Shown piece by piece: positions 13,342 to 64,000 of a stretch of DNA of 64,000 nucleotides. The first letter of the stretch is position 1; each line of letters opens with the position of its first letter. Under the pieces are notes generated by a model. It was given only the letters and a program-made list of their open reading frames with translations. It was not told the origin of the DNA and searched no databases. Location of the stretch: contig NW_027191417.1 in assembly GCF_041146345.1 (NCBI RefSeq), forward strand, positions 1,798,001 through 1,862,000, in the 5' to 3' direction. This stretch comes from Neodothiora populina (taxonomy: Eukaryota). The translations under genes and the position numbers were made by a program.

Positions 13342-14313
13342 CTAAACAGAGGGCCAGCCACCGCTCCAGCTGATCTTGTTGATACCAAGCTTCTTGTCGC
13401 CGTCGAGGTAGCTGACGGTGGTGTCGACGTAGTGGTAGTAGAGCACCCAGCCGTTCTTGGGGTCGTTGTAGACACCTTGGCCTCCGGGGCCGTAGACGTG
13501 GTCGTGGGAAGCGAGGACCTCGGTGCCGCCGCCGTTGAGGCACGACACCTTGTTCTTGTCGACGAAGCCGCTGGTCGGACTCGTTGATCTGCACACCATG
13601 ATCTTGTACTCGTCGCCCTTGGCCGGGCGCGACGTGTCGTAGTTGCAGCATTGGCCCGACGAGAAGAAGAGGTAGTAGTAGTTGTCGCGGTACACCATGT
13701 AGGAGCCCTCGAGGGAGTGAGTACCAGAACCGTTGAAGGCGATGTTGGTTGCTCCTGAGCCGCTGGTGCCGGTGAGGGAGGACTTCATCGTCGTCTGGAA
13801 GATGTCGGTCCAGAAACTGCCGAATTGCATGTAGTACTTGCCGTCACTGCCGACGTAGAGGTTGGGGTCGATGGCGTTGTAGGGCTTGCCGGTCGTGGAT
13901 GAGATGCCTGCGCTGCCGTGGTCGGTCCAGCTGCCGACTTCCATGGTCTTGGATGTTGCGACTCCGATCACTGAGTTCTGAGTGCCGAAGGCTGACACGG
14001 CGTAGTACATGTAGTAAGTTCCGCCGACATAGGAGACATCCGGTGCCCACATGTCCTTTGCGCCAGAGTTGTCAATCTTGGAGCCGCCCGAGAGAGCCTC
14101 ACCCTGGTAGACCCATGGTCCAGTCAGGGACGAGGCCTTGTGGATGGCAATACCACCACCGGTGGCAAAGCGGAAGTACTCTCCATCTGAAGTACGACGG
14201 ATGAGAGCAGGGTCGTGGGTGTTGGTGCACACACCAGAGCAAGCCATGGGATTAGCATAGCCAGCGACCATCGAGGCCAGGGCCAGAGGGACGGCGAGAA
14301 GAGAGAAAAGCAT
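13342..14313 (-). CDS. abnA: Secreted endo-1,5-alpha-L-arabinanase, GH43
   Basis: Intronless 323 aa ORF with a signal peptide and motifs [29 protein letters not shown] and YGPGGQGV, typical of fungal arabinanase A. Confidence 0.93.
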
Positions 14314-42473: not shown

Positions 42474-45151
42474 TCAGGTCTTGTTTTCGGCCTCTTTGGA
42501 AACCTCTCTGATCCTGGAGACGAGTTCGTCAATCTTGAAAGGCTTGGAAAGCACGCTGTCCATGCCGGCCGTTTTCATGTCTGCCTGCTGTTCTTGTCGC
42601 ACGTTCGCCGATACGCCTATGATCCGAACTCTGGGCAGGGAGTTCTCGGTCTCGTATTCTCGAATAGCTTTCGTAGCTGCATTGCCGTCCATGATTGGCA
42701 TCTCCTGGTCCATCAAAACGCAGTCGAACGCTGGCGACGTGGCGCCTGGGCCGATCGCGGCCTTGTAAGATTCGACAGCATCTTTGCCATTGTTCGCAGT
42801 CACGACTTCGAAGCCCTTTGATTGCATCTTGCGTTTGAGAATTTTCTGGTTGATGAGATTGTCCTCAACAAATAAGATCTTCAGGAAAGGCTGGTCTCCT
42901 TTCGTGCGATCTGTCAGTTGGGTGCGGCGATTGCGCGAAGTGTCCCCATCCTTGTCCTTGACATTCTTCCCATTTTGATCGATGTCGGGCTTTCGAGGGA
43001 TGTTGGACACAATGTCTGCTGTGTGACTCCATCTATCATCATTGTTCGACGAAGGTTCCACTCGTGGCGATTTTAGGGATTCTGGCACATCCTTGTCCTT
43101 TAGGTCCTTTTGTTGTATCTCCTCCGGAATGTGCAGGCCGTTCTGCATCTCTTCTTGATTCATACTTGCCCCATCTGGAGGAGTAGTCTCGCATCGTCGC
43201 ACACGGAAAAAGAACGCGAATGTGCTACCGCTTCCTTCCTTGGAGCTGACACCTATCTCTCCTCCATGTAGTTGACAGATCTTCCGCGAGATATTTAGGC
43301 CAAGCCCACTGCCGCCATAGATCTCCTCGGTCTTCGGAGTGGCCTGCCTGAAACGATCAAAGAGCTTCGTCTGGTTCTCGTTGGAAATTCCTATGCCCGT
43401 ATCACGTATCGCGACCGTGATATACAATGCCTCTCCATTGCCCCATTCGGCGCTGTGTGTCGAGTCCATATGGGTGACTTGATCGTCCAACTCGAAATAC
43501 ACAACATCAGGGGGATATGACGTTGGTCTTTCGATGGATGCTCCAACGTCAACAGCAATCTTTTTAGGCCCCTCTTTCTTAGCGGTAAACTTGATGGAAT
43601 TGGTCATCAGATTCACAAGCACTTGACTGATCCTCACGAGATCGGCCTTGACCCATTCCACCTTGTGCTTATTGTAGGAGGGATCAAGTTGGTAGTCGAA
43701 TCCTATGTGGCGTTTTCGCAGCTCGGGTTGGAAAATCTTCAACGAGTCCGCCATCTGCCGCTTCGGCTGGGTGTCCCTATTTATTTAGATCAGTGTCTAT
43801 TGGTATCTCAACTAGACAAGTTTTACTGCTTACTTTGGGGCAAGTGATAACATAGAGGCGTCGAGTTTCGAAAAGGACAGTACATCGTCGACAAGTGTCT
43901 TCTGATGTCCCACACATATCGATATAGTCTCACAAGCTTCTACGATATCATCGACGTTTATCGTGTCGGACCTGATCTTGCCATAATCAATCGCCTCAAG
44001 AATGTCTTCCTGGCAATGGAGTACCGCGCCTAACGGATTTCGGATTTCGTGACTGGACGACTTTAGATCAGACGACGAGAAGTTTAGCAAGTATTATTCC
44101 ACTCACCTCAGCATGTCGATGAAACGCTCTTGTTGTCGCTTACGTTCTTGAGCGTCCCGAGCTGCCTTCTTCTCCGAGAGTTCGGCAGCCTTGATCTTTG
44201 TAATGTCGACCACAGCACAGATGAAACCACCATAGCGTTTCAGACTAGCCTTCTCCAGATTTTCATCCTCAAGAGGACGCATGAGGAAAAGTCTCCACCT
44301 GGTCTCAATGTTAGCTGCATGGATGGCGATCGGTCGCAAGCATATCCTACGGTTCTTCCTTCCCATATGCTCTGAATTCGGTAGATAGATCAGTCCGAGA
44401 CTCGAAGGCCTCGCGGTATGCATTCATGACTCGATCATAGTCTTGCGGATGGATGGTTTTGGGCCATTTCTTGAATGATTTGTCGGTCCCTCCGTGGACA
44501 GTCAACTCATGAAATTGTTGGTTGACAAACAATGCCTCAGCTTGGTGGTCTAGTATTGCCAGTCCAGTCTATCTATAGTCAGAACATATATCCACGGCTA
44601 GTAATCGAGGAGCATCGCACCGGAAGCATCTCTGCAAACTTCTGGAAGAATGGCTGACGATCGAGAGAAATTCGTTGATTTGTTGGGCTGGAATCGAAGT
44701 TTCCTTTCGACGGATTCATCTCGTGCATGTGCTGTTCTGCATGACCACCTATGTGGCAACCAGAATCACATTGGTTGTCCGCGTTTTGTTGTTCTCCTTG
44801 TGGGTGGATGACTTGGACTACGATGCCATTCGCTTCACCAACGGTGAATGGACTGTATAATACAGGCCAATCTCGAAGGTGCTGTCTACCCTCAACATCA
44901 AAGGCTTGCACGGTCATACTCGAAGGCACGTCTCCATTCATGGCTGATCGTAATGTTTCTGCAAGTTCCTCAGGGACTACATCTTTCAGCGGTCCTCCTT
45001 GTTCAGTAGGAGTGCCCAGCAACTGCGCCCAGGGTTTGTTTTGCAACATAACAAGATCGTGTCCCACAAACATAGCAGCTGCAGATTGTAGAGATTCCAC
45101 GAACGCAGATATATTCTGGAGGCCTGCAGGCCATTCGCGCGCTGGACCCAT
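42474..45151 (-). CDS. Hybrid sensor histidine kinase (PAS, HisKA, HATPase, receiver)
   Basis: Exons 45151-44621, 44568-44351, 44298-44107, 44052-43834, 43776-42474. H box SHEIRNP, N box NLMTNSIKFT, DTGIGI, GSGLGL, receiver VEDN..MDQEMPIMDG..KP. The start may include a small extra upstream exon near 45250. Confidence 0.93.
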
Positions 45152-46755
45152 TGCATTCTCTATCCTATTCCTATTCAGCAAAAAGCCGTTTGCAAGGGTT
45201 GAGAGGGTTTCACTTTGAGGACAGGCAATTTTCATTCGTGCTTACGCCCATATCGGGATTGCCTCTTAGGCAAAGGAAAGTTTCTGTTGTTCTCAGGTCC
45301 ACGCTTGATCGGATTGTAGTTGTAGGTGCTGTTGCCTGTCCAGAATAGAGCAAACTCCTCGTAATGCAAACCCCAATTACCAGGGTAGTCGATGTGAAAT
45401 TTCCCTTATGCGACACGCTGCCTAGTGTGATAGCATCAATAGCAGTCGTTGCATATTACTGTGTACAAACATGAAGTCGTTTGAGGAAACCGCGGAAGGC
45501 GGAGTGTCGATCACTGTCGTCATGATGTCATCATACTCACCTATAATGCGATCTCATTATCACACTCAACTACCGTGTGCCTTGATTCTAGCTACATGCC
45601 ATGACATTTTATAATGCAGTATAAGGCAAAAACTCAGTGTTCCTGAAGATCATGGGTGGGTACAGTATAAGATACACGTGGACTAAGCAGGGACTATCTG
45701 CGGATTAAGGACACAGCTCGCTAAATGTGGTTTGTGTAACAAGTTAGACAAAAACGTTGCATAAAAGCGCATTCGGAACTTCCATCTGCAGTGCACATCT
45801 AACTATAGCGTATTTGGGAGTACCCAGGCACCATTGCGATTTGTACACCCCTCTGGTCCAATATTGCAATAGATTAAGACTTGTGAATGTTGTTCAGCAT
45901 AATCACGGGAGACTTAGCCTTAGGAAAGATCGGGCAACTGCGGCACCCAGGGTCCCGGACTCTAATCGATCTACACCTAGGCGATCACCGCATCGTGGAT
46001 ATTCTGCACAAGCCGATATACGAGCCTAGCGGCTTGCGTGTAACGCCTCGTACCGACGTTCATGTTGCCGGGCTACATGAACTGATTGACTTCACCACAT
46101 CAGAGCTAAGGTAGGCACACAATGAACAAAGGGTCTTACATCATGTCGTGAAAATGTGCCACAAAAGTCTCAATTTTGTCGTAAGTATGCGTTGCCTTAT
46201 AAGCATTATTGAAATCCTCATGCATCGTGAAACAGTACGAGTACGGTGGGTGCGTCGTTTTCCCTTCGCCAACGGCAAGTGGAAAGAAGTATGACCGAAT
46301 TTCTCTCCTTCCATGGGTCTTGCCATATGGTACAGTAACTCTAAAGACCTAGTCTTATTCACGAAGGCCTTTACGCTTTGACTAGTACCCTGGACGAACT
46401 GCAATTGGACAGTCCAATGACAGATGCACTGATGCGCCTTCGTTTCGACTCCCGCTTTAGCTCAAAGGCAGATCTCGAGTGGGGCCCTTGAACAGATCTA
46501 TACTGCACAGTATCAACGGCACATCTAGCGGGGATGTCGATTTCTCATCTCATTACTGGGTGGAAAGTATCGCTAGACCAAAGCGGTAGGTGCTTCGCAG
46601 GGCACTCAGTGGTTCGTTTCAGATACGCTCTCATATTTTACATATATCGTATCTTTACCCACCTCGAGAGGATTTTACCCGTTTATGCAGGCGTGCAAAT
46701 ATTTGTTTGGTCTTCTTGTACCCTTCGATTCCTGCCTTCGATCCCAGCCTTCACA

Positions 46756-48276
46756 ATGGATACTGAGCTATACGAAATCTGGGTGAGCGTTGTACAATCA
46801 TTGCCTACCTGACAGGTATCTGACCAAGCTTGCGCAGACATGGTACATCTTGGGTGCTCTGATCATCCTTAGCCGATTCATTGTCCGAATCAGGACTGTC
46901 GGCTTGAGAGGCTTCCAAGGCGATGACTACATAACAATTCTTGTATGTCAAAACAGTGATATCTATCATGTTATAGCGAGAAGCTGACTCAAACCTGCAG
47001 ACGCTGTTATTCTATACGTTGGACGCGGCGTGTGTCACCATTGTCTGTGAGTCGAATGCTTGAAGGGACTCCAAACTATGGGTTTTTCTCTAATGCATTG
47101 GAATCCAGTTCACACGGGTCAGAATATCGATGTTACCGAGAGCATGATACCCAGCCTTACGGCCAGCGACATCAGTCGCTTAGAATATGGCAGTAGGATA
47201 GAGCTCACGGCATGGTGAATGATGCTGAAATCCTGCTTGCGTTCAATGAACATACACTAAATCGCTAGGTACAGGTACAGCTATACGACTCTCATTTGGT
47301 GCATGAAGTTCACAATGTTATTCTTCTAGTGCGAGCTTTTAATCCTTCTACCCAGCTGTCTTTAAGACTAACTATCCGTATAGTAAACGTTTGACCCTTG
47401 GCTCTTTGCACAATCGACTGGTCAACTACTTGTTCTGGGTTTGTGGAGCCGCATATATTGCAGTATTCCTTACTATTTCCTTAGGATGCTATCCGTTAGT
47501 AGCCACTTCCACTCCTTTGACACAGTGTGGCTTACCAAAATCACGACAGGATACAATTGAATTGGCAGGTAGTTCCTATACCGCCATGGAAGTGCAGATT
47601 CCGACCTCAACTCTTCGGTGTCGTGGCTGCGCTCAACATCGGTACTGATATCGCATTGCTTTCCGTTCCTGCACCAATGCTTTGGAAGCTGAAGATCCCC
47701 CTGCGCCAGAAGCTCATCATCTCCTTGCTTCTTTCGTCCGGCGTCTTCGTCATCGTAGCTGCTATCATTCGTGTCGTCTACTCGCTAGACGCCGAACCGA
47801 GTGCCAGTAACATCAACAGGTGGGTCTCAAGTGAGAGGCATGGGGCGAAAACGAAGCCCTTGACTTGAAAAGTTGCCTAACACTGTCTCAGATGGGGAGT
47901 TCGAGAAACCATCATTGGTCTGTTCGCCATCAACATCCCAATCCTGCGACCAATTTTCAGGAGGACCTTCTGGACTTCGGGCAAATACGATCCTTCGTCT
48001 CCTCCTTCGGCGGGCTCGCGTCCCACGAACAGCAAGCGCTACAAATCATCTGGTCTCAGCGGATGTGACGTTGAACTCGGCACGACAACCGTGAAGAGCA
48101 TAACTCCTAGGCGCGCGAATAGCACTTCATCGCAGGAGAATCTTGTCCGTATGGGCAAGGACAACGTAGTCTACGTACAGACCACATACGATATTCAGAG
48201 CCACAGCCGTCAGGATGTGGACAGTGTGAAAGTATACGACAAGGACTGGGACGACAGAACGGTCACGACACCGTAA
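46756..48276 (+). CDS. PTH11-like/Sat4-like integral membrane protein (fungal rhodopsin domain, no CFEM)
   Basis: Eight exons join in frame through seven GT-AG introns. RFIVRIRTVG..GDDY, LIWCMKFTMLFFYKRL, LNIGTDIALLSVPAPMLWKLKIPLRQKL and WGVRE..NIPILRP. Confidence 0.88.
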
Positions 48277-50421: not shown

Positions 50422-52827
50422 CTATCCGATCGGATTGCCAAAGTTGAATTCGGTGTGATCTAGGCTTCCAGCCCACAGGTCTTCATTGATGAGGGTCGGC
50501 GCGCATCCTGCCATCCAACTGGTGGCGTCCCACGTAGGTTCGAAGATGGACGCCATGGATGGATCATACATCTCAGTATTCGAATCACGGAGATGAGAAC
50601 CGCATAGGCTGAGGATCACATCGCGACATTTCCCTGCGCTCGGATTCATGCTTGTCATTGACTGTATCACCTCCAGTGTCGCCTCTATCTGCAAGCGCCA
50701 ACCCAGTGCAAGCGGTGACTGCGGCTTACTTCGGAGACAATGTACTGGAATCAGGACAGCCTGGAAGAGGAAGTATCTAAATTCATCGATCAGTGTTACT
50801 GAACACAACAGAAAACTAGAAATTGAACTTACAGCACGTAGAAGGCGGTCAGTCGAGTCTGATACTTGGTGTTCCAGAAGTTCTGTATGTGAGTAATGGA
50901 CTCCTGAGCAGCTTGGAGACATCTGTCAGTGGCTGCTTGTTCGTCCCATGGAAGCACTTCGTTTTCGGCCTGAAGCGCCCATCGTACTAAGCATGGTCGA
51001 TAACAAATGATTCTCAAATTTCTGAAACGCCAAGCATTGATGCCTTGTACCAAGGCGAATCGAGGATCGATAGTCATTCCAGCATCATCGGTGAAGTACG
51101 GCGGCACTTTCTGCAGCCAGGTGTGAGTAGCAGTATCGTCAAGTGACAGAAGCTGATCGGCCTTCGGTGGAGGATTGCTGATCAAGCGATTGTAGATCAT
51201 CATCGTATGTAGATGATAGGAAGCTTGCTCTCGAATGTACGTTGCAACAGTCGCCTCCTGTACCTCAATTGGCAGCATATTTGTGGCCGAGGTAAGATGC
51301 TATGAGAGTCAGCACATGTCAGAATCGGCATTGTTTGACAAACTTACATCTTCATGAGAATTACTCGGCAGTGCCGCATCTATGCCCTCTTGCGGCCACG
51401 TGAGCGGTCGGCTGTAAGTAATCGTTGCTCCTACATCCAGCACACATAGAGACCACCAGATTCTCCGCCTCATCTCTCGAGTCAAGGTAGTCATCTTCTG
51501 ACCCCCGAGCTCCTTGTGAAGACCCAAACCAATCGCAAGACGAAGGGCAAGACCTCCATAGCTATAACTGCTATTTGGCTTGTTACGTTTCTGCAAATAG
51601 TGCGCTGTCAAACCAAAGATCTGTACCATCGCAATATTTCCCATTTCTAGACAGTTCATCGAGAGATGTTGCTTTGCAGTCCTGAAAATGGCAATATCGG
51701 TATCATCCTGTGAACTTGTGCTGGATACAAAGGCTCCAGTCGCAGCAACCAAGTTCGCCAGGACAAGCCATGTGCCTTGGCTCGGACGAGGAATAGCATT
51801 AGCATACTGTGCCCGGAATGTCGGCTCATGCAGTGCAGGAAAGGTGGGATGATACAGGCTGAAATATGCATCAACAAAGGCGTCCGACATGGCCCGAGTT
51901 ACCAAAGCCTGAGCATGGACTATGGATGTCATCGACGCCTTCTGAGACTGTTTCAACAGCTGTTGCATATGTTGCTGACGCTCGTTCCTGGAGTCGGCAT
52001 CCCACGCTGGCCCTCTGCCCGTCTCCATCCACATAGTCCGCAGATGCGAGGCTCCAGAGGCCGTGCCCAGATAGCCGTAGTTAGCAGCATCTACAGTGAG
52101 AGTAGCCATGCCATCCATGATTTTTTTCACGCCCTCTTCTCCGCCTGCTGACGGTGGCGCAAAGTCACCTGATCCGAGACCGGCAGACGACTGTTCCTGT
52201 TCATCCCACTCGAACTCTTCGTCTGAGTAGTCAGTTGATGGATAAACACCCTCACCCCCTGCTGGACTTGCATCCGGTCTGACCGAAGGCGAGGAAACAT
52301 AGGGTTCATGTTCTGTAGGGGTCGACCACCATGACTGCGATGACTCGATTTTCACAGGCTCTATGGAATGATCATGCTGCTGGTTGGTTGGAGTCGCATG
52401 TAACTGGCCCCCATCCGACATTGACTGTCTTGGTGTCCCATTGTCTGATGAGCGTAATGGGGGAAGCACGGGTATATCTCCCGACACATCCTGATCAAGC
52501 AAAAAAGTAACCTGATCCTCCGTATACAGCCTTTTGAGGATGGCCTCGGCTCGCTGGAGACGGTGCTCAACCTCTGTGAGATGTCTGTTGCAGGCATATC
52601 AGTCCATCATTCTATCCGATAAGCGTCTTGAAAAGTTCGTACTTCCTTGTCAGAGGCGTGCGGCTATGTTTGTCATACAAGCAATGCCGTCTGTAACGTC
52701 TACAAGTCGAGCATTCGGGTATCTTGTGATCGCAATTCGCCTTGCGCCTACGACATTCCTTGCAAGCTAGGTTATCTTCCTGATGCGCAGACCGCTTCGT
52801 AGGAGCAGGAGTCGCGCGCGTAGCCAT
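50422..52827 (-). CDS. Zn2Cys6 transcription factor with a Gal4-like linker and fungal-specific TF domain
   Basis: ACKECRRRKANC..PECSTCRRYRRHCLY then RTPLTRK|HLTEVE. Middle region YFSLYHPTFPALH and AIGLGLH..RRRIWW. Three introns (about 52642-52585, 51346-51300, 50832-50777). Confidence 0.93.
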
Positions 52828-53520
52828 GATGCGCCGGACCAATTATTGTCACAATTTGGTTATACAAGGGCGATAGAGTCCATCTGATCGGGGGGTGAGA
52901 GTCACCCTCGGACACGCGACTGTCTCTATTCAATGGACCCTACGGTAGAATGCGGGGCAATACCGAGTCCTCCTTCCACCCATCACGTTGGCTTCGGGAT
53001 CGACCAAATGTCGCAGTGCGCAACAAATCTCATGCTGATCATTTGGACAAAAGGTCGTTCGAATGTGATGGCGGAAGCTCGCAAATAGACAAGCGGAGGC
53101 GGCGGCAGCAGACTACCATGACATATTGCTGAAATACGGTGTCGAGCCACACACCTATAACGTGATTAAGCATCATCCGATATAGCCTTTGTGACATAAG
53201 GGTTCGCCTGCGTTTAAGCCTCAAGTCCTTGTCAACATGTGCAGTGAGATACGAATACGGTGTCGGTGTTTGAACGAGATAAGGTACGAGAAACATGACC
53301 TTCTTCGATTACTCAGACGGAAGAACTTTATTCAGCACATATCGACATGAGATTTTGCACTTCTGATGAACCTAGCAGAGCCGTGCAGTGACTTCAGGTT
53401 GGTCTCAAAAGATGATTCTCGTCATTCGACTATATACATAACTCATATACGCGGCTCGATGCGTAATGTCATTGCAGGTAAAGATGAAAACATGGAACGT
53501 GATAGCGTGGGGTAATGTCC

Positions 53521-55272
53521 CTAGACCAAGAAGCGGAAACCCTTCTGTTCACCGCCTCCGTTGCCCGCAGCAGGTCCTCCCATGGGGACTCCCTCGACGT
53601 ACTCGCCGCGATCTAGCTTCTTGTTTAGTCTAGTAAGGGTGATCTTCAAGACAAGAGCCGCAACAATTGCGATGACGGCAGTGCTGCAGTTGACGCTGAA
53701 CGCAATAATGTAGCGAGGACCCATGGTATCCTTGTACATGTAACTAGCGTAAATACTGGTGGTGTTGCTCAAGCAGTTGATAAGAGCGAGAGATGCAGCA
53801 CGCTTGGACTTGGGGCGCATAAGTGTGTTTGAGATCCAGGCCAGGGTGACCACGAAAGACATGTAGAAAGATGCGGGCATCAACATCATGGCAACGTAGC
53901 GAGGAGCGGTAGCAGTGGTTGCGGCAGCAAGGATGAATGCGGCAACAGACACAATAAGGGGGAGGACGATGTGGTAAAATCTCTCTCCAGTCTTATCCGC
54001 GTGCCATGCGTTAAATGAGGCGGTGATGAAGGCGAGCACGTAAGGAGGTGCGGTCAGTAGAAGAGTGTGGACGTGGCTGTATCCGAGAGTTGCGACCACT
54101 GTCGGGAAGAAGTTGGTGACACTGGCGCTGGAAGTGATGCCGAGAAGGACGAAAAGAAGAATGTATGTCTTGGGGTCCTTAAGGCAGAGAACGAAGCCGT
54201 GGAAGAAGCTACCGGACTCATCTTCAGTCTCAGCAACACCGACGTCCTCTTGCAGGCGGTAAACTGCGAGCTGCCTCTCTTGCTCGCTGAGCCAGGTAGT
54301 GGTGTGGGGGAAGTCGGGAAGGATGAAGTATGCGGCGAAAGCGACAGCGACGGTGACAGCGCCCTCAATGATGAACAGCCATCTCCTGTTTCTGCTGTTA
54401 GCAAGGAGCTATTGTAGGGAGACATGCGATTCTTACCAGGCACCAAGACCCTTGACTCCGTCCATACCATCGGAGATGCCGGCTGCAATGAGACCAGAAA
54501 ATGCTCCGGAGATGAGAGATCCAGCGTACAACATTGCGGTTCTCAAAGCAAGCTCTTTTCTGGTGTACCAGCAGGAAAGGAAAAACAAGCATCCAGGCTG
54601 AATTCGGTGTTAGCAAATGTGATCGGTACAAATGAGCTCGATTGAATGGACTCACGAAGTAGGCGGCTTCGACGAAACCCAAGCAGAATCTAATAGCAAC
54701 GACTGCGCCATATGACTGAGCTGCGGCGATTGATCCAGAGATGATACCCCAAACAATCATGACGGTAGGAAGGTAGATTGCGGGCTTTCCCATGTAGCTC
54801 AACAACAAGTTCGAAGGAACTTGCATAAGAATGTAACCGACGAAGAGGATACTAACGCAGGTCTGGTTCCTGGTCAGCGGAAATGCCCACAACGACTTTT
54901 TTCTTCTTTTCCTTTTTTCCCCCTATCTTTTTGGTGATGTGGCAAACATACATTGAATTGAGTTGAAGTCATGTTGAGATCCTCCACCATGCCGACTTTG
55001 CCTGCCAATTTGGCACTGGCAATGTTGTTGCGGTCGAGGTAGTTGAGAATGTACATAATAACCAACATTGGTAGCAATCTAAGATCGATTCTGCGGACCA
55101 ACTTCTTTTCCAGGCGCTGTCGCTCCTCGGGGGCGAGATCCCTCAACAGCTCGGGGACCCTGTTGGCAGTGTTGATCGAGGCCACATCTTCGCAAAATAG
55201 AGCGCCATCTTTCTCTGCAGAAATGTTGACGTCCTTCTCCGATAGAGCAGGATTGCTGGTAGGGGCGGCCAT
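53521..55272 (-). CDS. MFS transporter, anion:cation symporter (Dal5/Tna1-like) family
   Basis: LVRRIDLRLLP..LNYLDRNNIASAK, GYILMQVPSN, RFCLGFVEAAYFPG, WRWLFIIEG and PDFP. Three introns. Confidence 0.93.
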
Positions 55273-55338
55273 TGCTGTGGAGATTTTCGCTTATTCGCCT
55301 CTGCTCGAGTAATGGGCCAATCTGTTTAGAGAGAAAAT

Positions 55339-55399
55339 CTGGAGATGCTGGTGGGGAGAAAGTGGAGTACCCCGTGGGGGGACTATCACGGTTTATATA
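55339..55399 (-). promoter_or_regulatory. TATA box and cluster of CreA/Mig1-type SYGGRG sites upstream of the MFS gene
   Basis: TATATAAA on the minus strand at 55392-55399. CTGGAG 55339, GTGGGG 55351, GTGGAG 55362 and GTGGGG 55374 on the plus strand. Confidence 0.5.
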
Positions 55400-56493
55400 G
55401 TATCAAGTGCCGTGGCCCATTGCATGGACCTCTGGTCGGAACGGCCGCAAGTGTAGACCAGATTTACCGTGCATCTAGAATAGTACCACTGTGTACTATG
55501 GGCCACTAGGGTGGGAGTCGCCCAAGCCGACGTTATTGGATAGGGTCAGACTCACCCAGGCCAAGCATTCGGCTGGTCTTGGTACTACACGTGACGGTAG
55601 AAACACTCGCCGCAAATGTTTCCCGTGAAAAAGGGTATAGCACTAAACTGCAAGAAGCACTAGCTCGTCCCAGACTGCAAGACCAAACAGGCCGAAAACG
55701 TGAGCCGTGGGGGAAAATTGCGGCCAACTACTTCCTGTACCTTCCTTGCCTTGTGCATTTTGTGATGGGAATCGAAGAAGTGGCCTGCCCAACAGTAGAT
55801 GTCGGCTTGTCAAGAATGCCTGTAAGAAAGCGAATAGCAGAAACCCATCCAAGTGCCTACGGTCCATGACGACCGCTCATGTACATAGACGAGAAGTGAT
55901 CTCGACCACCTGCAGAGACCCGCTTGTCTCTACAAGTATTGTACACAATTGAGACACCTCCATAATCGACAGTGGCCCTTGCAATAATATCAGCCTCATC
56001 CCAGACTCACTCCCAACTCCACACCCGCCAAGAATAAGGTTTTGGCATGTGTCATTTCCACTGATTACTTAGCCCATCGGACCCAGAAGGATGGTCTGTG
56101 TCTCCTCCGCATATCCCCACACTCATCTACCCCGAGAGGAAGTGAGATCCAAGGGGTGGAAGATTCGATGCATCTGCAACAGTTTCGTGATATCCCGATA
56201 CGACGCCCAATGGGCAACTGTCGACCAAGTCGACCGTCACCCTGCTGCGGCGCAGGATTCTTTTGATCACGATCACAGGGCGACAGGTCGACATTCATCC
56301 TTGAATCATGAGGGGTGATGGTGGTTAGTAGTGATTGATATAATAATGTTGAAGTTGCCAAGTAAGTGAATGGGTAAGTCCATTTCATCTCAAGTTCATT
56401 CAGAGCATATCCAAAGCACTATTTCTGGCATAAATTTATTGTGCCTTGTAAGAAAATCCATATCAGATTGTACCCTGATACCCATTGCACATC

Positions 56494-58105
56494 ATGGTTC
56501 ACCTCACAAGCAACGACTTCTCCAATGGCAATGGCCACCTGCCTCAGACCATCGAGAAGATCGGCGTCATTGGCACGGGAGTCATGGGCTCCATGTTTGC
56601 CCTTCTCCTTGCATCCAACGGAATCACAGTCTCGATCCATGATCGCTCGGAACAGAGCATGCAGAACACTGCTGCCAAGGCCAAGGAGTCCGGTCTCTCA
56701 GACAAGATCATCGTCTGCAAGGACTACGACACTCTTTGCAGCTCGCTCGGATCGCCCAAGGTCTTTATCTTCAGTCTGCCACACGGCGGTCCCGGCAACG
56801 GGGTAGTCCAGACCCTGGCGCCCCATCTCCAGGCAGGAGACATTGTTGTCGATGCATCCAACGAAGACTACCGTGTCACGCAGAAGCGGCAGTCCATGCT
56901 CGAGCCCAACGGTGTCCACTACGTTGGCATGGGCATCTCGGGGGGCTTCAACGGTGCTCGCTACGGTCCTGCCATGATGCCTGGAGGCTCGACGGCGTCC
57001 GTGTCGCTGCTTCTTCCTCTGTTGCAGAAAATTGCAGCCAGAGATCCCCAGGGCCGTCCATGTGTTGCGCACATCGGACAGGGAGGCAGTGGCCATTATG
57101 TCAAGATGATCCACAATGGCATCGAGCACGGCATCATGTCAGCGCTGGCCGAGGCGTATGAGCTGATGACTTGCGTGGGCATGGATGGAGATGCCATTGG
57201 CAGCATGTTTGATTCGTGGTGCGCAGAAGGGCCGCTGGTAAGTTTTGCAATTCACCCCAACCCACAACAGATATGACTCTCCCTACTCTTCATGGATCAG
57301 ACTGACACAACAACCACACCAGAAAAACAACTTCCTCGTAGAAATCAGCGGACCGATCTGCCGCACCAAGAACAGCAAAGGCGGATTCCTGCTATCAGAC
57401 ATCCGGGACGCAGTAGTGCAAGACGCCAACGAATCCGAGGGCACAGGAGTATGGGCCAACGAAGAAGCCATCACAGCACATGTCCCCGCGCCCTCCCTAG
57501 CCGCAGCGCACAACTTCCGCCTCGCCTCCTCGGACATGTCCCTGCGCGCCACCATAAAGCCATACATCGGCGTCCTCGAAACCGAGCAGATGTACCCGCG
57601 CGAGAAGCAAAAGGCCGCCTTCCTGGATAAATTGCATGACGCAGTCTACGCCTCCGTGCTGGCGTGTTTCGCACAGGGTCTCGACCTCATGGCGCGCGCC
57701 GACGAGCGCGAAGGCTGGAACATCGACTTTGCCTCCGTCATCAACGTCTGGCGCGCCGGCTGTATCATCCGCTCGGATTACATCACGGACATCCTCGAGC
57801 GCCACTACTCGGCTTCAACAAAGAAAGTCCACCCCCTGTGCGGCGAGGACGTGTCGCGCGATCTGCGCCGCTGCATGCCCGCGCTGAAGTCGGTCGTCAT
57901 TGCTGGACTGGAGGTCAACGCCCACCTTCCTTGTCTCGGGGCGTCGCTCGAGTATCTGAAGTACATGTCTTGCGAGACGCTGCCGACGAACTTCATGGAG
58001 GCGCAGCTGGACTGCTTTGGTGCGCATGGGTATGATCTCAAGACGGAGCCAGTCAGGAGGTTCGCCAAGGGCCCGCATCACAGTGATTGGTCTGTTTCCG
58101 CTTAA
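56494..58105 (+). CDS. 6-phosphogluconate dehydrogenase-like decarboxylating dehydrogenase (divergent paralog)
   Basis: Exons 56494-57237 and 57323-58105. GTGVMG, GMGISGG..GARYGP..MPGG, GHYVKMIHNGIE, GTG, WRAGCIIRS and FGAH give a full-length 6PGD fold. Confidence 0.93.
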
Positions 58106-59159: not shown

Positions 59160-60872
59160 TCAGATCACGGACTCGATATCGCTCTCGACGTCGGCCTCGT
59201 CGGCCTTTTTCCGCCTCTCCTCGCTCATCTCGGCATATGTCGCCCAGCTGAGCAGCAAGAAGGCCGCGATGATCAGGACACCTCCCGCCACGGCGGCGCC
59301 GCTCAGCGGGCTGTTCAGCGGGGGAGGCAGCAATTGATCGACGACGGCGACGAGGAAAATCGTCAGCAGTGCAGCGACGGAGCTGAGTACGGGACTGGTC
59401 AGGGAGATCAAGACGAGAAAGGAGCCCGAGAAGGTGGCGTTTGCGAGGACGGAAATAAACAGCATCCAGGCTGCTTCGCCGCGGGGCAGGGCAAAGGGCT
59501 CGATGCCCGTGTAGTGCAGGATCGGAATGGGGATCCAGAGCACGCAGAGGGTGAAGACGCCGATCATGCTGCCGAAGGTGTTTGCGAAGATCATGCCTCG
59601 GCCCGGACTGCAGCCTTCGGGGGGACAGGCGACTTTCTTGTAGAGAACCTCGTAAAAGCCGTAGAGCACGCTGCCGACGCCGATGACAATGTTGCCCAGG
59701 GCGCGGTTGCTGGCTTCGTCCTTGTCCGGGGCGTCGGGTCCGCCTGCGCCTCCGCCGCTCTTGCTGCCGTGTTTGCTCGGGCTGCTGTCTCCGTAGGCGA
59801 CGACGAGGACGCCGACGATGGCGACGCCGACGGCGAAGATCTTGCTCCACTTTAGCTTCTCGTGCAGCATGGGGATGGCGAAGGCGTAGGCGAAAAAGGC
59901 CGAGCAGTTGTAGATGGCGGTCAAGTCGCTGGCGGTGGTCAGATCGACGGCGACATACCAGCTGCCTCCGGCCACGGTCAGGGCGCATGTGACAAAGGCG
60001 GTGGTGCGAACAAAATAAGGCACGGGCGACTTCTTGTGCAGATGAGGCGGGATGTGCAGAGTCTGGTGCTCGACCATCTGGGCGGTCTGGCGCAAGAGCT
60101 GCTTGTGTCGGCGCCAGAATGCGTCCCACGGCATGCTCCATTTCTGCAGGCGGATGATGAGCAGCTGGGTGGGATAGAGCAGTGACCACGAGCCGTGGGT
60201 CAGGTAGAGCATGCAGTATGCCTTGTTCCACTTGAGATTGTGCTGGATATAGACGGCGGTCTCGGTCTGGATGGTGAAGGAAATCAGACTCATGATCAGG
60301 AAACAGGCAGCGTAGATGTATTTCTTCCTCGTGGCAGCGCGGGCCTCGACCTCGGGGTCTCGTTCTCTGAAGGTCGAGCGACGGGTGCGCAGGACGGGGC
60401 CATCTGGAGAGGAGTAGTCCTGGTATTTGTCTCGGTCTGCGGCCAATAAAGGCTGGGAATGGGAATGTGGATTGGGATGCGCCTTTTGCCTGTCAACGGC
60501 GGGTCTCAGATCTGAAGGCATTTCTCTTGTGCCTCTGCCTCTGCCTCTGCCTCTGTGGTCCTGCGAGTCCTGCGAGTCCTGCGAGTCCTGCGAGTCTCGG
60601 TCGCTCTCTCTTTCTTGTTCTTCTCCTTCGGCCCAATGGTCCGGGTGTGGCAGGTCTACAAAGGGACTCGAGTTCCTCGAAGGCGGCTGTCCATTCGACG
60701 ACTGCGACAGGTGCACGAGGCTACTGGACGCCGACTCGACGTCTTGATTAGAGTAAGGGCGCAGGGAGGAGGCCAACAAGGGGGAGGAGCGTGGTGGCTG
60801 AGATGGCGGCGGTGGTAACAATGAGGGAGAAGGACCAGGAGCAGGTGGCGGCGGAGGAGTGACTCTAGGCAT
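59160..60872 (-). CDS. EamA/DMT superfamily (SLC35F-like) transporter
   Basis: 570 aa intronless ORF with about ten hydrophobic segments, SDLTAIYNCSAFFAY and LISLTSPVLSSVA. The N-terminus is low-complexity, so the true start may be downstream. Confidence 0.9.
   Translation of the reverse strand: MPRVTPPPPPAPGPSPSLLPPPPSQPPRSSPLLASSLRPYSNQDVESASSSLVHLSQSSNGQPPSRNSSPFVDLPHPDHWAEGEEQERESDRDSQDSQDSQDSQDHRGRGRGRGTREMPSDLRPAVDRQKAHPNPHSHSQPLLAADRDKYQDYSSPDGPVLRTRRSTFRERDPEVEARAATRKKYIYAACFLIMSLISFTIQTETAVYIQHNLKWNKAYCMLYLTHGSWSLLYPTQLLIIRLQKWSMPWDAFWRRHKQLLRQTAQMVEHQTLHIPPHLHKKSPVPYFVRTTAFVTCALTVAGGSWYVAVDLTTASDLTAIYNCSAFFAYAFAIPMLHEKLKWSKIFAVGVAIVGVLVVAYGDSSPSKHGSKSGGGAGGPDAPDKDEASNRALGNIVIGVGSVLYGFYEVLYKKVACPPEGCSPGRGMIFANTFGSMIGVFTLCVLWIPIPILHYTGIEPFALPRGEAAWMLFISVLANATFSGSFLVLISLTSPVLSSVAALLTIFLVAVVDQLLPPPLNSPLSGAAVAGGVLIIAAFLLLSWATYAEMSEERRKKADEADVESDIESVI
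60531..60596. repeat. Coding tandem repeats (GCCTCT)x4 and (GTCCTGCGA)x4, encoding RG and DSQ repeats
   Basis: Seen directly in the N-terminal region of the EamA ORF. Confidence 0.9.
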
Positions 60873-62521
60873 ACAAGCGGTCTAGCGGTGGTAGGGTACT
60901 TGTGCCTAAGATATGATAAGGGCAACCCTAGTGTGTGTATGCGAGAAAAGATAGTGTGTATCTCAGATACAGTGATAGAGGGAGAGGGGGGGGGAGCCGC
61001 CAGTGAGACACCTATTCTCCGTTCATCTCCACCCTGTCTATTTATTATCTATAGTATACTGCCCACGCGCACACTTGTTCGACTGACCAGCTCTCTGAAT
61101 GGCCGGATATGAAATGCTGTAGAGCCAGATGATAAGATAAAAAGAAACAGATAAGATGCGAATGACCCTTTTCCTCAATGTTGTTGAATCGTGTGCATGT
61201 GTACTTCAGCTCGTAATTGGCTGCTGACGTCGGCCCTAAAGTGCCACGCAGCCACATTTCACGCGTCGCAAAGGGGGCAAAGAAAGACAACTGTTCGATT
61301 ATTGTTAGCCCTTCGCTTTTGACGAGACGGACAAGACCAGAACCAATGTCACGACACACGTGTCTGGCGAATGCGTATATTTCTTGTCTTGTGACGCCAC
61401 CATCGTCCGCTTTATGTCTCTTTGCCTTCACGGAGGGCAACCCTGTCCGTTCGACTGGACAGCACGCGAGTCACTACCATAAGGTACCTTGTGTTGGGCA
61501 TCCATGCTCGGAGATTGAAACGTCCTCTCTCTTTCACGTCTTGTTGTTTACAGATACCCATTCGAGGTCAAAGAGACTATATAGTATATAACAAACGATA
61601 CTCGGAGCCTGCAACTTTAGTCGTGGAGTCCCAGAAAGAACGTTGAGAGACGCTGCAAAACAAGGTGACAAGAACCCCTCTCACCAGCGTGGTTTCAGCC
61701 GCCGAATCACCTGCGATATATCCGTGTCTTGAAGAACAGCGAGTGCGAGCATGGCGGTCGGGACCGAAACAGACTCGAATATACAATCAAAGCAACCAAA
61801 TCACAGACGAGTTGAAACGAGCAAGATTCACCGTGTCCAGCGAGTCATTCCTCTCTGCCAAGCCATGCTGGGGACACAGTTGTCGCGTACTGCAATCCAC
61901 ATCTTGCCTGTCATCAGAAGGTGACCGCTGATGCCATCCTGTGTGTTTGTCTTTACCTTCCAGTCTAACTCTGCTGCCTGGACAGTCTAGTCAACCAGAA
62001 TAAAGTACATGATTGCTGCCTGCTGCCAAAAAAAAGTGGTCATGGTCCAACCATTTAGCATCCACAAGGGTCGCGCCGGCATCGAAGCTTCCGACGCACG
62101 GGTGTGTGGGGGGGCGCAGCAGCCTTCGGTGGAATGGCCTGTTTCTTATCGGGATGATTCTTTGATTCTTTGTTCAGGGTATGTTCAGGGTATGGCAGAG
62201 AAAAACAAGGGTCGAGGAGTCATCGTTTTATCTGAATTGCACCAATCTAACCCCTAGACCCTTGTCGGCGGCGTGTCACAGTGCAGATGGGCAGATGCAG
62301 ATGGGAAATGGTCTGACTTCAGCATGATCGACGGAGCGACGTTAGGCGGCGCCGGCTCTCTTGTTCTTTGGTGTTTCGCAACTCCCATCTCGTACCTGAT
62401 TCTATTCTGTTCTTCCTTTAGTTTCTTCTACTCTTGATATACAATCCGCATGCTGTCGCCTTTTCCACAATATCAGGACATGAGACACTGACAAAATCCA
62501 CTGATCCAACAAACAATCAAA

Positions 62522-63719
62522 ATGGACCAGCAGCAGCAGCAGCAGCAGGCCGCCAACGCGCTGCAGCATGACTGGCCAAACCTCGAGGACCTTGGTATAG
62601 CCGCCGCGCCTGGCGTCTCCATGGACGGTCTGGACAACAACCCCAACGATTGGGAAGAATGGCTGCGATGGGATCCCACAACCGAACCTTTCTCTCCCGA
62701 CAGTTCGACAAAGACGTCAAATAATTCCCCCATGCAGGACCTGGGCTTCAATCCGGATCAATTCCCTTCCCTGCCCGGAGATGAGACGCTGGCGCCACCC
62801 TTGATCGTCGGCGATGACTCGACAATGTTTGATTTCTCTTTCGACCAACCCAACTTCAACTTTGACGACCTCAAGCCCACCAACACTGCTCAATTCGCCC
62901 TTGTCGCGCCAGACACGCAATTCGCACAACCGCCGGCAGATCCCGAGACCAACCTCCAGCCCATTCTGGACCATCTCCAGGCCAATGATGATCAGCCCTT
63001 GTTCCCTGCACCCTCCCTACCCTCTGAGCCGGTCCAGACCTCGCCCTTCTCACTTCCGAGCAATGACTTCTCCACCAATTATGCCGCGACCGTACCATCG
63101 ACGACCGGCAAGAGCAGCCCGGCGTCGTCCACTGCCCAACCACGCACCAGCGTCTCGTCCATGTCGCCTGCGCCCGAGCAGCCTCCTGCTCGCAAGAAGA
63201 GCGGACGCAAGAGAAAGTCGTCGAGTGACGACGAGAGCAAGCACCTCCCCGACGTCTCGCCCGAAGACGGTCCGCCCGTCAAGAAGACATCGCACAACGT
63301 CATCGAGAAGCGATACCGCAACAACCTCAACGACAAGATCCAAGAGCTGCGCGACAGTGTGCCCAGCCTGAGAGCCATGTCGAGGCCGAGCGGCACCGAC
63401 GAGTCCGAGGATCTCGAGGGTCTGACCCCGGCCCACAAGCTCAACAAGGCCACCGTGCTGGCAAAGGCCACCGAATACATCAAACATCTCGAGAAGCGCA
63501 ACAAAAACGTCACAAACGAGATGGAGGCGCTAAAGGCACGTCTTCTGACGCTGGAGAAGAACATCGCCAAGACGAGCGCCGTGCAGAATCTCCAGACTGC
63601 TGCCGGGCACGGCCTGTTCACACCATCCATGACCAGGTCCAGACAACCCTCGACCGCGCACATGGCTGCTGCCGGAAGACGAGCACAAGCCGAACAGTAC
63701 GCGCAACAGCAGCTACAGC

Positions 63720-63753
<34 letters not shown>

Positions 63754-64000
63754 GCCGCATCAACCGAAACAGCAACAAGAGCAGCAGCAGCAGCAGCAGC
63801 AGTCGCAGCAACAACAACAACAACAACAACAGACCTCACCTACTTTCGAGGCTCAAGCCGACACTGTCCAAGCCGGCCAACAGCGCATGGTCAACGGTCA
63901 AGGCGGCAACGGCTTCATGGGCAAGCTCATGGTCGGCTCTCTCGCTGGTGTGATGGTCATGGAGGGATTCCACGAGCAGGAGCAAAACAGTCAAGGGACA
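62522..64000 (+). CDS. srbA: SREBP-type bHLH transcription factor (SrbA/Sre1), truncated by the window end
   Basis: Open frame from ATG 62522 to the window end, so it is absent from the ORF track. KKTSHNVIEKRYRNNLNDKIQELRDSVPSL has the SREBP-diagnostic Tyr, followed by KLNKATVLAKATEYIKHLE, poly-Gln tracts and the GKLMVGSLAGVM membrane segment. Confidence 0.93.
63716..63830 (+). repeat. (CAA)n/(CAG)n poly-glutamine microsatellites within the SREBP gene
   Basis: Three tandem CAA/CAG runs seen directly. Confidence 0.9.

What the first reader, a model, noticed from the sequence alone, without database searches (positions are those of the whole stretch)
50422..58105. Candidate uncharacterised sugar-acid catabolic module: Gal4-like TF, anion permease and atypical 6PGD-like dehydrogenase
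Seen: three adjacent genes, with the permease and dehydrogenase divergently transcribed from a shared 1.2 kb region and the Zn2Cys6 gene next to the permease. Known: Dal5/Tna1-type ACS permeases import small carboxylates, and TF-transporter-enzyme triplets are the usual layout of fungal nutrient-utilisation clusters. Inference: an aldonate such as gluconate or galactonate is imported and oxidatively decarboxylated directly to a pentulose without a kinase step. No kinase gene is present in the module, and I know of no characterised fungal pathway of this form.
Basis: partly seen in the sequence, partly recalled or inferred. Interest (0 to 1): 0.8.

Follow-up and report, generated by a model that had tools for sequence, protein, structure and literature searches.

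The report
Fungal phosphate-free sugar-acid dehydrogenase module
A fungal three-gene module (regulator, acid importer, enzyme) recurs in distant fungi, and its enzyme is a 6-phosphogluconate dehydrogenase relative that keeps its catalytic residues but has lost its phosphate-gripping ones, pointing to an untested route that breaks down a sugar acid such as gluconate without first phosphorylating it.

Summary
The three genes are real and intact: a Gal4-like Zn2Cys6 regulator (747 aa), an anion:cation-symporter permease (517 aa) and a long-chain 6PGD-fold dehydrogenase (508 aa). The enzyme keeps all catalytic residues but has Y191→H, K260→E and R446→L at the 6-phosphate site, plus an NAD-type Asp. 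The same remodelling is in 50 of 50 fungal relatives and 0 of 70 canonical ones. It marks a Dikarya-wide family annotated as ordinary 6PGD; the genome has its own canonical gene. The window's sub-clade is linked to the same regulator family in Nectriaceae and one metagenome lineage, and to a permease in that lineage. The window's permease and regulator are paralogues of those partners, not orthologues. A cis-element (half-site GGKYGACWG) recurs upstream of this sub-clade in five lineages. It also occurs three times in the unlinked gluconokinase promoter, so 'no kinase in the module' holds for linkage but perhaps not for regulation. Best reading: an NAD-linked oxidative decarboxylase of a free aldonate, D-gluconate→D-ribulose most likely (0.55 for a free aldonate, about 0.3 for gluconate). 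No substrate, uptake or expression is shown for this locus.

The parts
50422..52827 (-). Gal4-like Zn2Cys6 transcription factor, 747 aa; exons 52827-52643, 52584-51348, 51299-50833, 50776-50422
   Evidence: Pfam Zn_clus, Gal4_dimer, Fungal_trans; best PDB hits Gal4 and Lac9; model matches P0241 apart from 15 residues
53521..55272 (-). MFS anion:cation symporter (ACS)-type permease, 517 aa; exons 55272-54952, 54862-54656, 54597-54437, 54385-53521
   Evidence: Identical to P0121; best NCBIfam TIGR00893 (D-galactonate transporter family) at 179 bits, below its 395 cut-off; PDB hits are VGLUT2 only
55273..56493 (.). Divergent promoter region shared by permease and dehydrogenase (1221 bp)
   Evidence: Gene models
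56217..56244 (.). Candidate regulator site 1: ACTGTCGACC (+, 56217-56226) and GGGTGACGGTCGAC (-, 56229-56242; the only match to GGGTGACNGTCRAC in the genome)
56277..56295 (.). Candidate regulator site 2: GGGCGACAG half-site overlapping a GGTCGACA core
   Evidence: 2 of only 4 exact half-sites in the 64-kb window lie in this promoter
56494..58105 (+). Long-chain 6PGD-fold dehydrogenase with remodelled 6-phosphate site, 508 aa; exons 56494-57237, 57323-58105
   Evidence: Identical to P0001; predicted model pLDDT 89.8, TM 0.86 to solved long-chain 6PGDs at about 30% identity; below NCBIfam cut-offs for gnd (349 vs 427 bits) and PRK09287 (394 vs 413)
56641..56643 (+). Asp50 at the position of Asn32: NAD-type coenzyme loop
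   Evidence: D in 47 of 50 family members; role of Asp from PMC8900737
57103..57129 (+). Catalytic K204, H207, N208, E211 (sheep K183, H186, N187, E190) retained; His212 replaces phosphate-site Tyr191
57437..57439 (+). Glu287 replaces phosphate-site Lys260, behind a five-residue acidic insertion
58007..58009 (+). Leu477 replaces Arg446, the tail arginine that binds the 6-phosphate
   Evidence: PMC8900737 and PMC1919378

Best explanation
An inducible module for using a free (non-phosphorylated) aldonic acid. The permease imports the acid (inferred from family). The Zn2Cys6 factor activates the divergent promoter through repeated GGKYGACWG half-sites (site conservation shown; binding inferred). 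The dimeric 6PGD-fold enzyme oxidises C3 with NAD+ and decarboxylates C1 by the normal Lys/Glu chemistry, giving a free pentulose, CO2 and NADH (catalytic residues and loss of the phosphate clamp shown; reaction inferred). The most likely substrate is D-gluconate, giving D-ribulose for the genome's pentulose kinase, run alongside the co-regulated gluconokinase/Gnd1 route (about 0.3 absolute). L-idonate (to L-xylulose) or D-galactonate (to D-xylulose) and other aldonates share the remaining 0.25 or so.
For: Catalytic and C1-C3 residues N102, S128-G129-G130, K183, H186, N187, E190 and H452 are invariant in 50 of 50 family members. Y191 is H/Q, K260 is E and R446 is L/M in 50 of 50, against Y 70/70, K 63/70 and R 70/70 in canonical proteins (roles from PMC8900737, and PMC1919378). 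The genome has a canonical Y/K/R gene elsewhere. Linkage: all 7 loci of one metagenome lineage carry a divergent ACS permease, and 2 of these with enough flank carry the regulator; 0 of 68 loci of other sub-clades do. Dehydrogenase and regulator are two accession numbers apart in 8 of 8 Nectriaceae assemblies where both were visible. A Fusarium-like contig shows a permease-like start divergent from the enzyme (E 5e-4). A Pseudogymnoascus record fuses that permease type to the regulator. Element: GACnGTCRAC lies upstream of 8 of 9 sub-clade loci vs 1 of 30 others; three or more half-sites occur in 10 of 12 sub-clade loci (2 lack upstream DNA), with no triple in 568 kb of other loci. The gluconokinase promoter has three half-sites; 0 of 54 control promoters do. 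A pentulose kinase, a xylulokinase and a gluconokinase are all in the genome.
Against: No assay, uptake or expression data exist for this locus. R287, T262 and the G-T-G loop are retained, so an anion could still bind. A co-regulated gluconokinase would supply 6-phosphogluconate and fits the rival reading equally well. The element was refined after the gluconokinase site was seen, rests on one genome there, and is absent upstream of the pentulose kinase and xylulokinase that would take up the product. It is not a CGG-type site, so another factor may bind it. The permease is not orthologous to the cluster permease elsewhere. Locus L073 has the element but a different Zn2Cys6 gene and no permease upstream. 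Some regulators of the linked clade sit beside an SDR gene. The presumed A. nidulans relative AN10233 is highest on galactose (38.4 vs 0.62 on glucose) but is also listed for carbon starvation, and the A. niger one is flat on eight sugars.
Confidence: 0.55

Rival explanations
1. An NAD+-specific catabolic 6-phosphogluconate dehydrogenase: gluconate is imported, phosphorylated by the unlinked but co-regulated gluconokinase, and oxidised by this enzyme through a rebuilt phosphate site, giving NADH rather than NADPH.
For: Three half-sites in the gluconokinase promoter; NAD-type Asp50; R287 and T262 kept; databases and A. niger models file such genes as 6PGD/gndB.
Against: The tail arginine that binds the 6-phosphate is Leu, Lys260 is an invariant Glu and Tyr191 is gone; these residues are described as conserved across solved long-chain enzymes. 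That R446 and R287 alanine mutants lose activity several hundred-fold is recalled, not read.
Confidence: 0.17
2. The substrate carries another anion or no C6 (an aldarate such as glucarate, a 6-sulfonate, or a C4/C5 acid), or the enzyme only oxidises to the 3-keto acid.
For: R287 is invariant and could hold a carboxylate or sulfonate; new invariant residues E124, D282, H311, K461 and E474 reshape the pocket. Another sub-clade is divergently paired with a xylose-isomerase-like TIM barrel (4 loci). Superfamily members act on free short acids (NCBIfam L-threonate dehydrogenase hit).
Against: Glu at 260 disfavours a second anion (inference). The decarboxylation residues are fully kept. The gluconokinase link points to a gluconate-level signal.
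Confidence: 0.14
3. The dehydrogenase-like protein is an inducer sensor or repressor of the neighbouring activator, as with GaaX/GaaR (clustered; PMC6353982) or Gal80/Gal4 (recalled).
For: Constant linkage to a Gal4-like activator; altered substrate pocket.
Against: Every catalytic residue is invariant in 50 of 50 members; most family members have no regulator beside them (0 of 68 loci).
Confidence: 0.07
4. In this genome the three genes are neighbours without forming one regulon; the permease in particular is an unrelated recruit.
For: The permease belongs to a widespread subfamily with a 72% identical paralogue elsewhere in the genome, not to the cluster type. The element lies 200-275 bp from the enzyme but about 950 bp from the permease start.
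Against: Same order (regulator-permease-enzyme) as inferred for Nectriaceae; same three families in another lineage; shared element.
Confidence: 0.07

Closest known systems
Long-chain decarboxylating 6-phosphogluconate dehydrogenase (Gnd1/GndA, EC 1.1.1.44)
   Same: Fold (TM 0.86), length, tail, and all catalytic and C1-C3 binding residues.
   Different: About 30% identity; Y191H, K260E and R446L at the phosphate site; GxGxMG and Asp instead of GxAxMG and Asn-Arg-Thr; below curated cut-offs; accessory, clustered gene alongside a canonical copy.
Aspergillus 'gndB' orthogroup (NRRL3_09641, AN10233; PMC9781776 Table S2, PMC6231085)
   Same: Probably the same remodelled family: a second long 6PGD group present in most Aspergilli and in Agaricomycetes and absent from T. 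reesei. Inferred from distribution; sequences not compared.
   Different: Filed there as an ordinary pentose-phosphate enzyme with no assay seen; probably a non-clustered sub-clade.
Animal pentose pathway: L-gulonate 3-dehydrogenase CRYL1 plus decarboxylase C11orf54 (PMC12337341)
   Same: NAD-linked beta-oxidation and decarboxylation of an unphosphorylated hexonate to a pentulose.
   Different: Two unrelated enzymes there, one 6PGD-type protein here; the paper states fungi typically lack that gene set.
Fungal D-glucuronate/D-gluconate catabolism (GluC-F, GukA; PMC6353982, PMC5306355)
   Same: Aldonate intermediates, divergent gene pairs, gluconokinase at the end.
   Different: Ends by phosphorylating gluconate; no 6PGD-like step on a free acid in the passages read. 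The genome's idonate-dehydrogenase-like/KduD-like pair lacks the element.
Fungal regulator-transporter-enzyme nutrient clusters (gaaR-gaaX, gluD-gluE; rhamnose and quinate clusters recalled)
   Same: Layout and divergent promoter.
   Different: Different enzyme family; the candidate site is a GAC-based repeat, not the CGG-N11-CCG site of Gal4/RhaR (PMC5469009).

Membership tests
Canonical long-chain 6PGD (EC 1.1.1.44) | Two-domain long-chain fold with C-terminal tail | tested here: met
   Pfam PF03446 + full-length PF00393; Foldseek TM 0.85-0.87
Canonical long-chain 6PGD (EC 1.1.1.44) | Catalytic Lys183/Glu190 with Ser128-Gly-Gly, Asn102, His186, Asn187, His452 | tested here: met
   All present; invariant in 50 of 50
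Canonical long-chain 6PGD (EC 1.1.1.44) | 6-phosphate site Tyr191, Lys260, Thr262, Arg287, Arg446 | tested here: not met
   His212, Glu287, Leu477; only Thr and Arg287 kept
Canonical long-chain 6PGD (EC 1.1.1.44) | NADP 2'-phosphate loop Asn32-Arg33-Thr34 | tested here: not met
   Asp50-Arg51-Ser52; Asp in 47 of 50
Canonical long-chain 6PGD (EC 1.1.1.44) | Score above curated gnd / PRK09287 cut-off | tested here: not met
   349.5 < 426.7 and 393.9 < 413 bits (prokaryote-built models)
Canonical long-chain 6PGD (EC 1.1.1.44) | Activity on 6-phosphogluconate | not testable with these tools
   Needs assay
Short-chain NAD-6PGD / HIBADH-type beta-hydroxyacid dehydrogenases | About 300 aa, no duplicated helical domain or tail | tested here: not met
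   508 aa; TM about 0.5 to the short forms; TIGR00872 169 < 297 bits
ACS (anion:cation symporter) MFS permeases | MFS_1 fold with best match to ACS models | tested here: met
   PF07690; TIGR00893 E 1.5e-52 and HpaX E 3.5e-41; PDB VGLUT2
ACS (anion:cation symporter) MFS permeases | Closest to yeast Dal5/Tna1 specifically; aldonate transport | not tested
   No characterised fungal permease was in the data; the Dal5/Tna1 label is recalled
Gal4-type Zn2Cys6 activators | Zn2Cys6 cluster, Gal4 linker/dimer helix, fungal middle homology region | tested here: met
Gal4-type Zn2Cys6 activators | Conserved CGG-N11-CCG site in the target promoter | tested here: not met
   No CGG-N11-CCG in the window promoter or seven related ones; the conserved element is GAC-based
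Fungal nutrient-utilisation gene cluster | Linkage conserved across lineages | tested here: met
   partners are paralogues
Fungal nutrient-utilisation gene cluster | Co-induction dependent on the regulator | not testable with these tools
   No RNA holder listed
Enzyme-derived repressor (GaaX/Gal80 type) | Decay of catalytic residues (recalled criterion) | tested here: not met
   Catalytic residues invariant

The most novel reading that the evidence does not exclude
Fungi have a phosphate-free version of the oxidative pentose phosphate step. A Dikarya-wide family, misannotated as 6PGD, converts free aldonates to pentuloses in one enzyme with NAD+. This sub-clade is the inducible gluconate (or related acid) branch, controlled by an undescribed Gal4-like regulator that reads a non-CGG site and also drives gluconokinase, and the module has been reassembled from different permease and regulator paralogues.
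Probability: 0.4. Interest if true: 0.78.

Novelty: new variant of a known kind. Interest (0 to 1): 0.62.

Why it matters
If right, genes counted as NADPH-making pentose-phosphate enzymes in fungal metabolic models (gndB and kin, present across ascomycetes and basidiomycetes) do a different job: one-step, kinase-free, NADH-yielding conversion of a sugar acid to a pentulose. That would add a route for gluconate or another aldonate in fungi, where the published models list missing steps (PMC9781776), and supply a new biocatalyst for rare ketopentoses. The cluster, the residue signature and the candidate site make the question testable with one enzyme screen and three deletions.

Tried and rejected
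Expression: no RNA holder listed; the one run laid is probably DNA and gave three short contigs, so there is no verdict. Earlier scan notes were not available. Literature: ten full-text searches found no characterisation of this family, cluster or element; the library lacks most subscription papers. The T. atroviride barcoded-library supplement sd07 has no 'phosphogluconate' row; its appendix and sd02 were too large to read, and bioRxiv supplements were not read. Conserved linkage of the family to an ILV3-like dehydratase, seen for the genome's second paralogue, was rejected: 0 of 80 loci. A CGG-type Gal4 site was rejected. A wide regulon was not found: genome-wide scans with six patterns gave counts from background level (47 vs 39; 27 vs 23; 6 vs 7) to two- to three-fold enriched (18 vs 5; 20 vs 9 sites), or a single hit at this promoter; only gluconokinase stood out among the neighbours inspected. 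No half-site was found upstream of 7 D-2-hydroxyacid dehydrogenases or the idonate-dehydrogenase-like/KduD-like pair. Galactonate as lead substrate was considered because AN10233 peaks on galactose, then down-weighted: the gene is also in the starvation and arabinogalactan lists, and its family membership is unverified. Prokaryotic intermediates: none among 150 best representatives; hits with readable motifs were either remodelled or canonical-type. ESM Atlas gave only 6PGD and MFS clusters. The gene between enzyme and regulator in the Nectriaceae assemblies was not seen directly. The permease tree is the quick version, and the enzyme and regulator trees are FastTree only.
Full report
OBSERVATION. 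The window is a fungal genome stretch (G000:C13:1798001-1862000). The three genes are intact. The dehydrogenase (+, 56494-58105, one 85-nt intron) gives 508 aa identical to record P0001. The permease (-, 55272-53521, three introns) gives 517 aa identical to P0121. The regulator (-, 52827-50422, three introns) gives 747 aa and matches P0241 apart from 15 residues. The database labels these records Neodothiora populina with consecutive locus tags 005004-005006. Permease and enzyme diverge from 1221 bp. No kinase is in the module.

THE ENZYME. Sequence and predicted structure place it with long-chain 6-phosphogluconate dehydrogenases (about 30% identity, TM 0.86), but below the curated cut-offs. 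I aligned the 120 listed of 147 hits: 50 form a divergent group (the named ones fungal, except one rotifer record) and 70 are canonical-type. In the 50, every residue that binds C1-C3 or catalyses the reaction (sheep N102, S128, G129, G130, K183, H186, N187, E190, H452) is invariant. Of the residues around the 6-phosphate (Y191, K260, R287, R446 in PMC8900737, passages; T262 added in PMC1919378, passages), Y191 is H or Q, K260 is E and R446 is L or M in 50 of 50, while R287 and T262 stay. The canonical rows have Y 70/70, K 63/70, R 70/70. Asn32 is Asp in 47 of 50, which the same review ties to NAD+ preference. A profile search of 1.84 billion representatives ranked remodelled proteins first and then jumped to canonical ones, with no intermediate among the 150 listed; the named ones are asco- and basidiomycete. 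The genome has a canonical gene on C3 and a second remodelled paralogue on C2. So this is a conserved, probably active enzyme family whose pocket is no longer built for a phosphate, though an anion site is not excluded.

LINKAGE. A metagenome scan confirmed 204 relatives and returned 80 loci. Twelve are at least 54% identical to the window enzyme (clade A; one well-supported clade in a FastTree). Seven of the 12 carry a divergent ACS permease, and the two with long downstream flank (L075, L077) carry a homologue of the regulator. None of the other 68 loci (28 with 2 kb or more upstream) hit permease or regulator. The seven are 79-99.9% alike in DNA and count as one lineage. Of the other five, three are too short, L074 (98% identical to Fusarium proteins) has a permease-like start divergent from the enzyme (E 5e-4), and L073 has a different Zn2Cys6 gene there. 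Independently, enzyme and regulator accessions are two apart in all 8 assemblies where both were listed (Thelonectria olida and seven of the Fusarium solani complex; 10 clusters looked up for each, at most 15 members shown); the middle gene was not seen. A Pseudogymnoascus record runs the permease into the regulator, and enzyme P0006 and regulator P0283 share a contig length of 27294 (indirect). Against simple inheritance: the cluster permease of the other lineages (62-85% among themselves) is only 41-44% identical to the window's, which belongs to a widespread subfamily with a 72% paralogue on C3. The window's regulator lies in a sister clade, 44-46% identical to the enzyme-linked ones, though the DNA-binding domain and linker are closely alike. 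The module looks reassembled from paralogues. Other sub-clades sit beside PEX2 or a xylose-isomerase-like TIM barrel.

A SHARED ELEMENT. Comparing promoters that do not otherwise align, ACTGTCGACC was the only 10-mer shared by 4 of 5 clade-A lineages; 9 of 500 random sets of other loci shared any 10-mer. The looser GACnGTCRAC is upstream of 8 of 9 clade-A loci tested (the miss has 286 bp) and 1 of 30 others. The half-site GGKYGACWG occurs three or more times in each of the 10 clade-A loci with upstream DNA, against 32 copies and no triple in 568 kb of other loci. The window has 4 exact copies in 64 kb, 2 in this promoter. Of five candidate promoters checked, only gluconokinase had the site; it has three half-sites 312-340 bp upstream. 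Among 54 control promoters 4 had one or more, 1 had two and none had three. Caveats: the pattern was refined after the gluconokinase hit, two of its half-sites overlap as one palindrome, the pre-set loose pattern would hit one of five such regions roughly one time in ten, conservation at gluconokinase in other fungi could not be tested, and binding by this regulator is inferred.

EXPRESSION CLUES (other fungi, other sub-clades). In PMC9781776 (passages, section 3.4, supplement rows) the 'gndB' orthogroup spans Aspergillus, Penicillium and two Agaricomycetes. I infer, without sequence, that it is this family. A. nidulans AN10233 reads 38.4 on galactose, 7.3 on rhamnose and 0.6-2.9 on seven other sugars; A. 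niger gndB is flat at 14-18. In PMC8780418 (passages, supplement rows) AN10233 is in gene lists for lactose, arabinogalactan and starvation versus glucose, so the galactose peak may be carbon stress. gukA is induced on D-glucuronate in three ascomycetes. Gluconate was not among the sugars tested.

MECHANISM. Shown: three intact genes, conserved linkage at family level, intact catalytic machinery, lost phosphate clamp, NAD-type loop, conserved upstream element. Inferred: import of an aldonate, activation through the element, oxidation at C3 and decarboxylation to a pentulose. By configuration D-gluconate gives D-ribulose, L-idonate L-xylulose and D-galactonate D-xylulose (own knowledge); pentulose kinase and xylulokinase genes are present but lack the element. 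I put 0.55 on a free aldonate (gluconate about 0.3), 0.17 on an NAD-6PGD fed by gluconokinase, 0.14 on another acid or oxidation only, 0.07 on a sensor and 0.07 on no shared regulon.

COMPARISON AND NOVELTY. It works like 6PGD but fails the family's phosphate-site and NADP-loop features, so it should not be filed as EC 1.1.1.44. The chemistry proposed matches the animal CRYL1/C11orf54 pathway, which uses two enzymes and is said to be typically lacking in fungi (PMC12337341, passages). Known fungal glucuronate/gluconate routes end in phosphorylation or dehydration (PMC6353982, PMC4870679, PMC5306355, PMC6231085, passages). ApnO is only a distant fold relative (PMC13753588, passages). Passages of PMC4830055, PMC13534542, bioRxiv 675652, PMC8113861 and PMC5469009 added no characterisation. 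Ten searches found no study of the family, cluster or element; subscription papers and unread supplements could hold one. Verdict: a real, conserved module around a new variant of a known enzyme family; function is a strong, testable prediction, not shown. Interest 0.62.

Noticed in passing
G000:C2:433.7-438.5 kb (L006 723-2336 minus; 3946-5514 plus): Second remodelled 6PGD-like paralogue (H191, E260, L446) lies divergent from an ILV3/IlvD-type dihydroxy-acid dehydratase; this pairing was in 0 of 80 metagenome loci.
   Followed up: yes
L014, L018, L021, L031 (e.g. L018 8488-9582 minus): A further sub-clade of the remodelled enzyme is divergently paired with a xylose-isomerase-like TIM barrel (PF01261, weak 3-dehydroshikimate dehydratase hit): a second candidate module with another substrate.
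   Followed up: partly
G000:C14:1654410-1654446 (L089, L237): Gluconokinase promoter holds three half-sites of the cluster element inside a 31-bp inverted repeat.
   Followed up: partly
G000:C16:96.0-98.3 kb (L240, L274): Divergent pair of an L-idonate-dehydrogenase-like Zn enzyme and a KduD/gluconate-5-dehydrogenase-like SDR, resembling the glucuronate route; no element upstream.
   Followed up: partly
G000:C13:47-51 kb (L276, L239): L-rhamnose-1-dehydrogenase-like SDR near a Zn-dependent sugar dehydrogenase, a likely rhamnose cluster.
   Followed up: no
P0032, P0033, P0041, L035: A well-supported branch of the remodelled family includes a record labelled Rotaria (bdelloid rotifer); possible transfer from fungi or contamination.
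   Followed up: no
L023, L075-L079: Enzyme of this lineage nests among Nectriaceae proteins and its regulator groups with Hypocreales/Pseudogymnoascus ones, hinting at cluster transfer; upstream lie a GH5-like secreted protein, a sugar porter and a GH127 gene (L075).
   Followed up: partly
L039, L040 (13640-14593 minus; 15902-16801 plus): Non-clustered sub-clade gene beside PEX2 is followed by a flavohemoglobin, a Zn-dependent polyol-dehydrogenase-like gene and a sugar transporter.
   Followed up: no
G000:C2:1226.4-1227.5 kb (L256): A Zn-dependent dehydrogenase resembling L-arabinitol dehydrogenase (recalled motif) has two half-sites 176 bp apart; compatible with chance among 54 promoters.
   Followed up: partly
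window 52282-52326 approx. (regulator residues 168-182): The database model of the regulator removes 15 in-frame residues that the open frame retains; possibly an extra short intron.
   Followed up: no
window 42480-45241, 47343-48276, 59160-60881, 62492-64000, 13345-14328: Neighbours: hybrid histidine kinase/response regulator, fungal-rhodopsin-domain (Pth11-like) gene, EamA transporter, bHLH factor with poly-Q tract, GH43 hydrolase; none tied to the module.
   Followed up: no
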